The translations under genes were made by a program, and so were the position numbers. A stretch of 64,000 bases of DNA, taken from the NCBI RefSeq assembly GCF_053078305.1, contig NZ_CP166879.1; one strand, 5' to 3'. The notes under the pieces were generated by a model. The model saw nothing but the letters and a program-made list of their open reading frames with translations. It was not told where the DNA came from and ran no database searches. Within the stretch, counting starts at the first letter, position 1, and every line of letters starts with the position of its first letter. Positions 14,123 to 14,662 of this stretch are shown in pieces.

Positions 14123-14130
14123 TCACCTTT

Positions 14131-14160
14131 CTCCGGGCGAAAAAAAACCTGCCGCAGCAG
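14131..14160 (-). terminator. Hairpin terminator following lipoprotein moron
   Basis: ACCTGC-CGCAG-CAGGT flanked by A-run and T-run (bidirectional), between lipoprotein stop and H start. Confidence 0.45.
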
Positions 14161-14185
14161 GTTTTATTCATCAGCAGATTATTGA

Positions 14186-14599
14186 TTAAGTTTTGGGTAC
14201 CAGCCCGGGATTCAGACTTTCCGGACTCAGTGTATACATACCGCCATTGAATGGGTCCACAAGCAACCAGCCAACAATACCACCAAAGACAAAGTTACCA
14301 CCAATGTACCATCCATTAGCCGATGCCTTGATCGGCAGCGTTACGGGCTGATAATTCTCTTTACTGAATGTGATCTGATAACTCTTTTTCCCGAAGTAAC
14401 TGCCGTCAGATTTTTCAAGTGTTACATTCTGCGGTGTTTTGCCCGAAGAAATTGTTTTCCCTGACTCATCTTTAATAATAAAATCCGCACCAGACGGATT
14501 ACTGTTTACCTGTACAGTCTGCGTTTTATCTCCGACAATGGTTGCACACCCCGTCAGAAAAAAGCTGACAGAGAAAATCAACAGCATGAATTTCTTCAT
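14186..14599 (-). CDS. Lipoprotein moron with PEGA-like domain and Gly-rich C-terminus
   Basis: 137 aa; signal peptide with lipobox LTGC; ...NSNPSGADFIIKD...GKTP...; C-terminal GWYIGGNFVFGGIVGW; AT-rich own promoter region 14600-14662. Confidence 0.7.
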   Translation of the reverse strand: MKKFMLLIFSVSFFLTGCATIVGDKTQTVQVNSNPSGADFIIKDESGKTISSGKTPQNVTLEKSDGSYFGKKSYQITFSKENYQPVTLPIKASANGWYIGGNFVFGGIVGWLLVDPFNGGMYTLSPESLNPGLVPKT

Positions 14600-14662
14600 A
14601 AAATGGCTCCGTTCAGTTAATTTTCCCCGAAAATACTGTAATAAAGATCTGCAAAGTTAAAA

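What the first reader, a model, noticed from the sequence alone, without database searches (positions are those of the whole stretch)
14123..14662. Lipoprotein moron between tail chaperone GT and tape-measure gene
A 137-aa lipoprotein (lipobox LTGC, PEGA-like beta-rich domain, Gly-rich C-terminus) sits in an AT-rich segment with its own upstream region and a hairpin terminator, inserted between the frameshifted GT chaperone and H. This is the slot where, as I recall, HK97 carries its superinfection-exclusion moron gene 15. An envelope lipoprotein expressed from a prophage is a plausible exclusion or receptor-masking factor.
Basis: partly seen in the sequence, partly recalled or inferred. Interest (0 to 1): 0.55.

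Follow-up and report, generated by a model that had tools for sequence, protein, structure and literature searches.

The report
Prophage cargo gene for envelope lipoprotein
A lambda-like prophage carries, between its tail chaperone and tape-measure genes, an extra gene for an outer-membrane lipoprotein from a large uncharacterised bacterial family that temperate phages have captured repeatedly; it probably changes the host's envelope, but whether it blocks other phages is untested.

Summary
A 137-aa lipoprotein gene (14186-14599, minus strand; 43% GC against 57% in its neighbours) fills the gap between tail genes G/T and H. Close relatives have only 52 bp there. HK97's exclusion gene 15 does occupy this slot.

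Two corrections:
- The hairpin is also present in relatives that lack the gene, so it belongs to the phage backbone.
- The 63-nt upstream spacer has no convincing promoter.

The protein is not related to gp15, SieA or SlyB, and it matched no annotated exclusion family in Pfam, PHROGs or PADLOC. It belongs to a very large unnamed family found in many diderm bacteria (lipobox, PEGA-like sandwich, glycine-zipper hairpin). In Photorhabdus and Lonsdalea it keeps a fixed chromosomal position within each genus. In E. coli, Salmonella, Proteus and Pantoea it rides on phages, in at least four tail-module slots and in the sieA slot of P22-like phages.

Published RNA-seq shows that a 69%-identical copy in prophage Gally is transcribed while the late genes stay silent. 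It is low in LB and high in DMEM and macrophages.

My best reading is an outer-membrane-modifying conversion gene that works somewhat like SlyB (0.4). Superinfection exclusion remains a live rival (0.3). Function is untested.

The parts
14186..14599 (-). Lipoprotein coding sequence (137 codons plus TAA stop)
   Evidence: ORF list. Matches phrog_6823 at E 2.8e-73 over its full length. dN/dS is 0.08-0.21 among copies of this lineage.
14546..14599 (-). Signal peptide with lipobox LTGC; the Cys18 codon is 14546-14548; Ala at +2
   Evidence: Read from the sequence. Cys18 is invariant and Ala19 nearly invariant in 128 relatives. Sorting to the outer membrane is inferred from the E. coli +2 rule.
14318..14524 (-). 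PEGA-like / transthyretin-like beta-sandwich, residues 26-94
14237..14317 (-). Conserved hydrophobic glycine-zipper segment NGWYIGGNFVFGGIVGWLLVDPFNGGM, residues 95-121
   Evidence: This is the most conserved block of the family: G110, D115, P116 and G119 are invariant. AF2 predicts two short helices, 96-105 and 107-113, at pLDDT 59-77.
14189..14236 (-). C-terminal strand that returns to the sandwich, residues 122-137
   Evidence: AF2 pLDDT 93-96.
14600..14662 (-). 63-nt AT-rich spacer between the T stop codon and the lipoprotein ATG; GGAG ribosome-binding site at 14607-14610
   Evidence: Sequence. No promoter passes the scan on this strand. The best hit in my relaxed scan is TTAACT-19-TATTTT. 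TTTATTAMAGTA and the ribosome-binding region are conserved within this lineage.
14172..14662 (-). Extent of the extra DNA relative to empty-site relatives (about 490 bp); the last 7 codons of T (14663-14683) also differ
   Evidence: Alignment with E. coli O157 TR01, where the T stop and H start are 52 bp apart. Megablast matches of 1,240 other genomes stop at window position 14171.
14140..14165 (-). Intrinsic-terminator-like hairpin with a U8 tract just upstream of H; a backbone element, not part of the insert
   Evidence: Fold energy -19.2 kcal/mol, z -3.24. Present with one loop change in the empty site and in all copies of this lineage.
14663..15390 (-). Upstream neighbours: tail assembly chaperones G and G-T (slippery A AAA AAG at 14971-14977)
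   Evidence: phrog_344 and phrog_337. Simulated -1 frameshift gives one open fusion.
10880..14122 (-). Downstream neighbour: tape measure protein H (1080 aa)
   Evidence: phrog_339, E=0.

Best explanation
This is a horizontally acquired cargo gene (a moron in the broad sense). It gives the host cell a copy of a widespread, still unnamed diderm lipoprotein that E. coli does not otherwise have.

**Proposed mechanism**
1. The precursor is exported and lipidated at Cys18.
2. Because residue +2 is Ala, it is sorted to the periplasmic face of the outer membrane.
3. The PEGA-like sandwich starts only 8 residues after the lipid anchor, so it lies against the membrane.
4. The conserved glycine-zipper helical hairpin, which sits in a loop of the sandwich, dips into the inner leaflet.
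5. From there the protein acts on the outer membrane itself, on lipid or porin organisation and possibly as an oligomer. This is analogous to, but not homologous with, SlyB and YfgH.
6. The lysogen gains an envelope phenotype, most likely stress tolerance in host-like conditions.

**Shown:** the gene, its foreign composition, the insertion, the family and its distribution, purifying selection, and autonomous, condition-dependent transcription of a 69%-identical phage-borne homologue.

**Inferred:** localisation, membrane insertion, the target, and the phenotype.

For this particular copy, expression in the lysogen is unproven. It is certainly co-transcribed with the late tail operon.
For: **Architecture**
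- Lipobox with an invariant Cys.
- Confident sandwich, helical Gly-rich hairpin and returning strand.

**A cellular family, not a phage invention**
- 3,377 clusters (50% identity) match at E<=1e-3.
- Homologues occur in Neisseria, Pseudomonas, Acinetobacter, Bacteroidota and Halomonadaceae.
- The gene keeps a fixed chromosomal position within Photorhabdus and within Lonsdalea.
- Phage copies are 62-77% identical to chromosomal Enterobacterales copies, keep every conserved motif and intermix with them in the neighbour-joining tree.

**The gene is under selection**
- dN/dS is 0.08-0.21 within this lineage.

**Expression of the homologue** (Gally GALLYPH_14 = LF82_139, PMC9928086 S1 Table; values are log2 fpkm)
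- LB overnight: 6.2 and 4.8.
- Columns B1 and B6, taken to be DMEM from the table caption: 9.8-10.5.
- Macrophages at 1 h: 11.0.
- The adjacent injection genes stay at 2.5-4.2.
- The C2 repressor is at 8.9-12.

**Precedent**
- Outer-membrane glycine-zipper lipoproteins SlyB and YfgH stabilise the outer membrane under stress, and slyB was found in screens for macrophage survival.
Against: - No experiment addresses the function of any family member.
- There is no detectable homology to SlyB (hhalign aligns only the lipobox) or to any Pfam glycine-zipper family. The SlyB parallel rests on predicted architecture, and the hairpin has low confidence (pLDDT 59-77).
- This copy lacks the promoter-like TTCACA-17-TAGGAT element of the Gally and epsilon34 cassette. 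It has GCAGAT at the -10 position. It may therefore be silent in the lysogen, which would undercut a lysogen-benefit model.
- The gene sits in the two best-known exclusion slots.
- The carriers are rare: 4 of 5,426 complete E. coli genomes.
Confidence: 0.4

Rival explanations
1. Superinfection exclusion. The outer-membrane lipoprotein, made in the lysogen, blocks incoming phages at the outer-membrane or periplasm step. It could mask or inactivate an outer-membrane receptor from the periplasmic side, as Cor and Llp do with FhuA. Or it could prevent the tape-measure or ejection-protein conduit from forming, as gp15, SieA and Ltp do.
For: - It is in the same slot as HK97 gp15.
- In about 68 of 80 IMG/VR loci the homologue lies between gene 16 and mnt, which is the sieA position.
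- None of those loci has a homologue of P22-type (type A) SieA or the published SieA motif, and the gene-16 to mnt interval leaves little room for one.
- At least four distinct siphophage backbones carry it in the T|H slot.
- In both phage types the gene lies next to genes for the DNA-delivery conduit.
- Lipoprotein exclusion factors are well precedented.
Against: - No homology to any known exclusion protein.
- The cassette also sits in the H|M and I|J slots, so its position may only reflect permissive junctions.
- Nearly identical lipoproteins sit next to gene-16 proteins that are only 34% identical to each other, and 69%-identical ones sit in siphophages. The target therefore cannot be phage-specific.
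- Chromosomal orthologues with fixed positions within genera, and strong conservation, are unlike defence genes.
- The Gally homologue is low in LB overnight culture.
- This copy lacks an evident promoter.
Confidence: 0.3
2. A late-expressed phage function. In this copy the gene has no promoter of its own and is made only with the tail operon during lytic growth. The lipoprotein would then protect the infected cell or the progeny. For example, it could stop released virions from injecting into lysing cells and debris, as is proposed for T5 Llp (from my own knowledge, not checked here). Or it could exclude competitors during the latent period.
For: - The gene is co-oriented with the late operon in every phage context.
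- The spacer is only 63 nt, without a scoring promoter, and the -10 of the Gally-type element is destroyed here.
- The terminator that follows is shared with the backbone.
- Purifying selection is maintained.
Against: - The Gally homologue is clearly transcribed while late genes are silent.
- Every phage-borne copy examined is followed by a terminator, and most have a conserved 5' element, as expected for autonomous units.
- Close relatives do without the gene.
Confidence: 0.12
3. Neutral hitch-hiker. The gene is a passenger picked up by illegitimate recombination and benefits neither phage nor host.
For: - It is rare in E. coli.
- Close relatives are viable without it.
- One sub-lineage (L028, L029) has D115A at an otherwise invariant Asp.
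Against: - dN/dS is 0.08-0.21, and the changes cluster in the signal peptide and the C-terminal tail.
- The gene has been retained repeatedly in different phage types, slots and genera.
- The homologue shows regulated expression.
Confidence: 0.05

Closest known systems
HK97 gene 15 moron (gp15, YebO-like superinfection exclusion protein)
   Same: - Same genomic slot, between the G/GT tail chaperone and the tape measure gene.
- Same orientation, followed by a hairpin with a T-run just before H.
- Extra DNA of deviant composition.
- An envelope protein that has chromosomal bacterial homologues.
   Different: - No sequence similarity.
- gp15 is a 62-aa inner-membrane protein, whereas this is a 137-aa lipoprotein predicted to go to the outer membrane.
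- gp15 diverged from YebO at its C-terminus, whereas this protein keeps all family motifs.
- Exclusion is demonstrated for gp15 and untested here.
P22 SieA (inner-membrane exclusion protein in the 'ant moron' region)
   Same: Homologues of this lipoprotein occupy the gene 16 to mnt/gene 9 interval, where sieA lies. They were not found together with P22-type SieA.
   Different: - No homology.
- SieA is a multi-pass inner-membrane protein encoded on the strand opposite to the late operon, whereas the lipoprotein is co-oriented with it.
Cor (phi80/N15) and Llp (T5) outer-membrane lipoproteins that inactivate FhuA; Ltp (TP-J34) lipoprotein that targets the tape measure protein
   Same: These are phage-encoded lipoproteins acting at the envelope. 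They are precedents for a lipoprotein blocking a receptor from the periplasmic side or blocking the tape-measure-dependent step.
   Different: - No match to any annotated PHROG, Pfam or PADLOC family other than phrog_6823, which has unknown function.
- I made no direct pairwise comparison with Cor or Llp.
- Different fold class from Ltp (my own knowledge: Ltp is helical).
- No receptor specificity is known.
- This family is mainly chromosomal.
SlyB / YfgH glycine-zipper outer-membrane lipoproteins (PDB 7ojf)
   Same: - Lipobox.
- A small beta domain with a glycine-zipper helical hairpin inserted in it.
- Predicted outer-membrane location.
- Broad conservation in diderm bacteria.
- Expression linked to host-like or stress conditions.
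   Different: - No detectable homology (hhalign aligns only the lipobox; no Gly-zipper Pfam hit in 128 members).
- The hairpin here is shorter (about 10 + 7 residues) and predicted with low confidence.
- Oligomerisation and lipid binding are untested.
Salmonella phage epsilon34 gene 15 / Escherichia phage Gally GALLYPH_14 (phrog_6823)
   Same: These are true homologues, 69% identical over the full length, with the same domain organisation.
   Different: - They are carried by P22-like podophages in the immI region, not in a siphophage T|H slot.
- They have a promoter-like 5' element that this copy lacks.
- Both are annotated as hypothetical. The Gally paper listed Gally as having no morons, on LB data alone.

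Membership tests
Moron (Juhala/Hendrix sense) | Extra DNA between genes that are adjacent in related phages | tested here: met
   O157 TR01 and 1,240 other E. coli genomes have T and H 52 bp apart. Here the gap is 540 bp.
Moron (Juhala/Hendrix sense) | Base composition differs from the flanking genes | tested here: met
   41.5-43.2% GC against 57-58%. GC3 is 0.46 against 0.61.
Moron (Juhala/Hendrix sense) | Own terminator | tested here: inconclusive
   A good hairpin with a U8 tract follows the gene. The same hairpin is present in empty-site relatives. All other phage-borne copies examined have a terminator of their own.
Moron (Juhala/Hendrix sense) | Own promoter; expressed from the repressed prophage | tested here: inconclusive
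   No scoring sigma-70 site in the 63-nt spacer. A 69%-identical homologue in prophage Gally is transcribed while late genes are silent.
Bacterial lipoprotein (signal peptidase II substrate) | Basic n-region, hydrophobic core, lipobox [LVI][ASTVI][GAS]C | tested here: met
   MKK-FMLLIFSVSFF-LTGC. The Cys is invariant in 128 relatives. Lipidation itself is not testable here.
PEGA domain (PF08308) | Significant match to the Pfam profile | tested here: inconclusive
   i-E 0.018 for this protein. Six of 128 relatives score E<=1e-3, with a best of 3e-8. The predicted fold is a transthyretin-like sandwich.
HK97 gp15 / YebO exclusion family | Sequence homology to gp15 | tested here: not met
   gp15 gave no blastp hit to the lipoprotein at E<=100, and its only tblastn hit among all loci was HK97 itself.
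HK97 gp15 / YebO exclusion family | Location between the GT chaperone and the tape measure gene | tested here: met
   HK97 record compared with the window.
HK97 gp15 / YebO exclusion family | Blocks DNA entry of superinfecting phage | not testable with these tools
   Needs plating, adsorption and injection assays.
P22 SieA family | Sequence homology, or the FxRYPxEAxxFNK motif | tested here: not met
   Only a chance-level blastp alignment between SieA and the lipoprotein (E 0.04, 18 bits). The motif was found in none of the 105 loci then held, and tblastn with P22 SieA hit only P22 among all loci.
Cor / Llp receptor-blocking lipoproteins | Membership of an annotated phage exclusion-lipoprotein family | tested here: not met
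   The only PHROG hit is phrog_6823 (unknown function). There are no PADLOC or Pfam hits of that kind. No direct pairwise comparison with Cor or Llp was made.
SlyB / glycine zipper 2TM lipoproteins (PF05433) | Homology to SlyB or to the Pfam glycine-zipper families | tested here: not met
   hhalign of the 128-sequence profile against SlyB aligns 14 lipobox residues, probability 1%. No such Pfam hit in 128 members.
SlyB / glycine zipper 2TM lipoproteins (PF05433) | Glycine-zipper helical hairpin inserted in a beta domain of an outer-membrane lipoprotein | tested here: inconclusive
   AF2 predicts helices 96-105 and 107-113 between sandwich strands, but at pLDDT 59-77.
SlyB / glycine zipper 2TM lipoproteins (PF05433) | Ring oligomers that enclose outer-membrane proteins and lipids | not testable with these tools
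   Needs multimer modelling or biochemistry.

The most novel reading that the evidence does not exclude
The PEGA-sandwich plus glycine-zipper lipoproteins would be a new, very widespread class of outer-membrane factor that temperate phages capture again and again and park next to their DNA-delivery genes (T|H, H|M, I|J, gene 16|mnt). They would do so because the protein blocks genome entry generically, for both long-tailed and short-tailed phages, by reorganising the inner leaflet of the outer membrane around porins or receptors. That would link a SlyB-like membrane-nanodomain mechanism to superinfection exclusion. It would also give a function to thousands of 'PEGA domain-containing' hypothetical proteins.
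Probability: 0.2. Interest if true: 0.7.

Novelty: new variant of a known kind. Interest (0 to 1): 0.42.

Why it matters
- **An unnamed family could get a function.** Prophage cargo genes that alter the envelope decide which phages can infect a strain and how well pathogens survive in the host. This family is large (thousands of clusters), has no name in Pfam or NCBIfam, and has no published function.
- **Phages mark it as worth carrying.** They have captured it in at least four tail-module slots and in the sieA slot of P22-like phages. That flags it as conferring something useful.
- **There is a ready experimental handle.** A homologue in the Crohn's-associated strain LF82 is among the most strongly transcribed Gally prophage genes in macrophages, yet it was not counted as a moron.
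- **Either outcome would be informative.** A simple plating and envelope-stress test would assign a function to the family. It would also show whether the T|H slot predicts exclusion function or is merely a permissive junction.

Tried and rejected
**Searches for a known family, all negative**
- NCBIfam gave only a sub-threshold lipobox match.
- PADLOC gave nothing.
- PDB sequence profiles gave only a weak CnaB-type repeat match.

**Homology to known exclusion or membrane proteins, rejected**
- gp15 and SieA.
- SlyB.

**Conserved operon partner**
- None across genera. Synteny holds only within a genus.

**Promoter for this copy**
- The scan and my relaxed scan found only weak candidates.
- By eye I compared the conserved 5' element of the other cassettes (TGTTTA-N3-TGTTTC / TTAGGATGTTTCCGATT) with PhoP, OmpR and RcsB consensus sites from memory. 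The spacing did not fit any of them, so I make no claim.

**Literature**
- Searches for PEGA lipoproteins in prophages, 'ant moron', and T|H morons found no functional study.

**Link between the lipoprotein and the neighbouring porin moron, rejected**
- Other carriers of the lipoprotein have the porin in a different prophage.

Full report
**1. Observation**

The interval 14123-14662 is exactly the gap between the start of the tape measure gene H (10880-14122, minus strand) and the stop of tail chaperone gene T (14663-14944). It holds one real ORF, 14186-14599 on the minus strand, 137 aa, beginning MKKFMLLIFSVSFFLTGC.

- G (ending at 14968) and T are joined by a -1 slip at A AAA AAG (14971-14977). 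The slip gives one open G-T fusion.
- The ORF is 43.2% GC and the insert 41.5%. Its neighbours are 57-58%.
The HK97 record annotates Gp15, 'moron product', between GT and H, followed by a putative terminator. Cumby et al. describe it as the first moron and as an exclusion protein (PMC3594210).

**2. Boundaries and the hairpin**

- Only 4 of 5,426 complete E. coli genomes carry this gene at 96-99.5% identity. Another 1,240 match only the first 72 bases of the query, which are the H start plus the hairpin.
- In one of those, O157 TR01, T and H are 52 bp apart. The hairpin AAAACCTGCTGTGGCAGG-T9 is already there.
- The extra DNA is therefore about 490 bp (14172-14662). The last seven codons of T also differ.
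- The terminator-like hairpin (14140-14165; -19.2 kcal/mol in its 59-nt context, z -3.2) is a backbone feature, not part of the insert.
- The leader is 63 nt, with a GGAG ribosome-binding site. No sigma-70 site passes the scan on this strand, and my relaxed scan finds only weak candidates.

**3. What the protein is**

- It matches phrog_6823 (unknown function) at E 3e-73.
- Pfam gives only a weak PEGA hit, i-E 0.018. NCBIfam and PADLOC give nothing useful.
- It is nevertheless a member of a very large family. 346 proteins were found in the word-indexed search. 3,377 clusters at 50% identity match at E<=1e-3, and 1,306 at E<=1e-10.
- A 128-sequence alignment shows an invariant lipobox Cys and a conserved block NGWYxxGNxxFGGLIGWLIVDPxTGAMxTLxP, with invariant G110, D115, P116 and G119.
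- PEGA is significant in 6 of the 128 members, and at E<=0.1 in 47.
- AlphaFold2 with this alignment gives mean pLDDT 85:
  - a sandwich at residues 26-94 (pLDDT about 98);
  - two short helices, 96-105 and 107-113, in the Gly-rich block (pLDDT 59-77);
  - a C-terminal strand that returns to the sandwich (pLDDT about 95).
- Ala at +2 predicts sorting to the outer membrane, by the E. coli +2 rule (established knowledge).
- The Gly-rich block is less hydrophobic than the signal peptide. No 19-residue window there reaches the 1.39 of the weakest signal-peptide window listed. Both of its ends are tied to the sandwich. This fits a re-entrant hairpin rather than a membrane-spanning helix. That is inference.

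**4. Where the family lives**

In species-representative genomes, 183 relatives were found.

*Chromosomal copies*
- In Photorhabdus and Lonsdalea the gene has no phage-like neighbours and keeps the same neighbours within each genus.
- In Xenorhabdus, Rosenbergiella, Tatumella and many Halomonadaceae it also has no phage-like neighbours.
- No operon partner is conserved across genera. The same holds for Actinobacillus, Enterobacter, Kluyvera and Zoogloea.
- AFDB adds Neisseria, Pseudomonas, Acinetobacter and Bacteroidota.

*Phage-borne copies*
- In E. coli, Salmonella, Proteus, Pantoea and Pseudescherichia the gene is phage-borne.
- Of 80 IMG/VR loci, about 68 are P22-like, with the gene between ejection gene 16 and mnt and co-oriented with the late operon.
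- Twelve are T|lipoprotein|H in several backbones. Some of these have T only 58-64% and H only 45-59% identical to the window's.
- Proteus prophages have it directly upstream of H.
- P. vulneris prophages have it between I and J.
- A Pantoea MAG has it between H and M.
- Named phages with it are epsilon34 (gene 15), Gally and vB_EcoP-720R6.
- The epsilon34 paper lists gene 15 as unknown, with matches only to bacterial genes. It places gene 15 in the 'ant moron', which in P22 holds sieA.

*Relationships and selection*
- Phage copies intermix with Erwiniaceae chromosomal copies in a neighbour-joining tree. The window type forms its own branch.
- Within the window lineage dN/dS is 0.08-0.21.

**5. 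Autonomy of the cassette**

- Every phage-borne copy examined is followed by its own hairpin with a T-run.
- Copies in different slots share about 45 nt of 5' sequence: TTAGGATGTTTCCGATT, with a promoter-like TTCACA-17-TAGGAT. This holds for epsilon34, P. vulneris, L033 and L051.
- The window lineage has GCAGAT or GCGGGT where the -10 should be.
- Published RNA-seq of E. coli LF82 gives direct evidence for the Gally homologue, LF82_139 = GALLYPH_14 (PMC9928086 S1 Table):

| Gene / condition | log2 fpkm |
|---|---|
| GALLYPH_14, LB overnight | 6.2 and 4.8 |
| GALLYPH_14, columns B1 and B6 | 9.8-10.5 |
| GALLYPH_14, macrophages 1 h | 11.0 |
| GALLYPH_14, macrophages 6 h | 9.4-9.5 |
| Adjacent injection genes, all conditions | 2.5-4.2 |
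| C2 repressor, all conditions | 8.9-12 |

- The table caption names LB, DMEM and macrophage conditions, so I take B1 and B6 to be DMEM at 1 h and 6 h.
- The authors used LB data with a 5-fold cut-off and concluded that Gally has no morons. By their own table, this gene is an autonomously transcribed, condition-regulated moron.
- Whether the window copy behaves likewise is unknown.

**6. Mechanism**

The shown and inferred steps are listed under the best explanation. I favour an outer-membrane-modifying conversion gene (confidence 0.4) for four reasons:

- The family is cellular, conserved, and fixed in position within two genera.
- Phage copies show no sign of a new function.
- The architecture parallels SlyB and YfgH: a lipid anchor, a small beta domain and a glycine-zipper helical hairpin. 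SlyB and YfgH stabilise the outer membrane under stress, and slyB was found in screens for macrophage survival.
- The expression pattern of the homologue fits this.

The parallel is functional analogy only. hhalign against SlyB (PDB 7ojf) aligns just the lipobox.

Superinfection exclusion (0.3) remains well motivated.
- For it:
  - the gene occupies both classic exclusion slots;
  - P22-type SieA is absent from the P22-like carriers;
  - the gene sits next to the genes for the DNA-delivery conduit.
- Against it:
  - the cassette also sits in the H|M and I|J slots;
  - the lipoprotein stays constant next to very different gene-16 proteins;
  - the chromosomal orthologues have fixed positions within genera.

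The two ideas are not exclusive. A protein that reorganises the membrane around porins could also block phage entry.

A purely late function (0.12) must be kept for this copy because it lacks a convincing promoter.

**7. Novelty and verdict**

- The kind of thing is known: a moron in the T|H slot encoding an envelope protein.
- The protein family has no described function and is unrelated to the known exclusion proteins tested.
- The exclusion interpretation is plausible but untested, and it is not the reading my evidence favours.
- Interest is moderate.

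Noticed in passing
window 9193-10347 (-), with flanks 9026-10545: A second moron sits in the same tail module. It is a 384-aa OmpC-subfamily porin (NCBIfam NF007841, 508 bits against a cut-off of 484) between tail genes M and L, with GC falling to 28% upstream. The M|porin|L arrangement occurs in 108 of 5,426 complete E. coli genomes. In other carriers of the lipoprotein it lies in a different prophage.
   Followed up: partly
window 14140-14165; L002 about 2524-2575: About 1,240 E. coli genomes with an 'empty' T|H junction still carry the terminator-like hairpin inside the late tail operon. 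It could be a scar of a lost moron or a landing pad for new ones.
   Followed up: partly
L016 3878-4393 (-) (Gally GALLYPH_13); also L004 5381-5866 (-): Divergently transcribed next to the lipoprotein in many P22-like prophages is a second, unrelated lipoprotein (MKKSLLIIPLLLAGC; phrog_6067, unknown function). It also rises in macrophages, from log2 fpkm 6.0-6.3 in LB to 10.3. Other loci have a 129-aa secreted protein or an hkcB-like protein in that position.
   Followed up: partly
L009 6001-8364 (Actinobacillus succinogenes): The chromosomal homologue lies directly upstream of a TbpB-like surface lipoprotein and a Slam (SlipAM) translocon gene. This is possibly coincidence. It is possibly a hint that some family members work with surface-lipoprotein export.
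   Followed up: no
window 17606-18829 (-): A 407-aa ORF downstream of the portal gene contains four near-identical tandem repeats of about 54 aa (DDVRPMLEQMVKEAVSHIPVPRDGRDYDPEVLQKAVNDAVANIPQPADGKS). RefSeq relatives annotate portal plus this ORF as one 'frameshifted' portal pseudogene.
   Followed up: no
L028 and L029 (IMG/VR), residue 115 of the lipoprotein: One sub-lineage of the window-type gene has D115A at an Asp that is invariant in 128 family members. This may be a decaying or altered-function allele.
   Followed up: no
window 52995-61070 (+): A 2,691-aa ORF lies beyond the integrase-like gene (50523-51548), outside the prophage. It was not examined.
   Followed up: no
upstream of the lipoprotein in L015, L012, L033, L051, L016: A conserved 5' element contains a 9-bp-period direct repeat, TGTTTA-N3-TGTTTC, that overlaps the promoter-like -10. 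It is a candidate regulator-binding site that could explain the DMEM and macrophage induction. It is degenerate in the window copy.
   Followed up: partly
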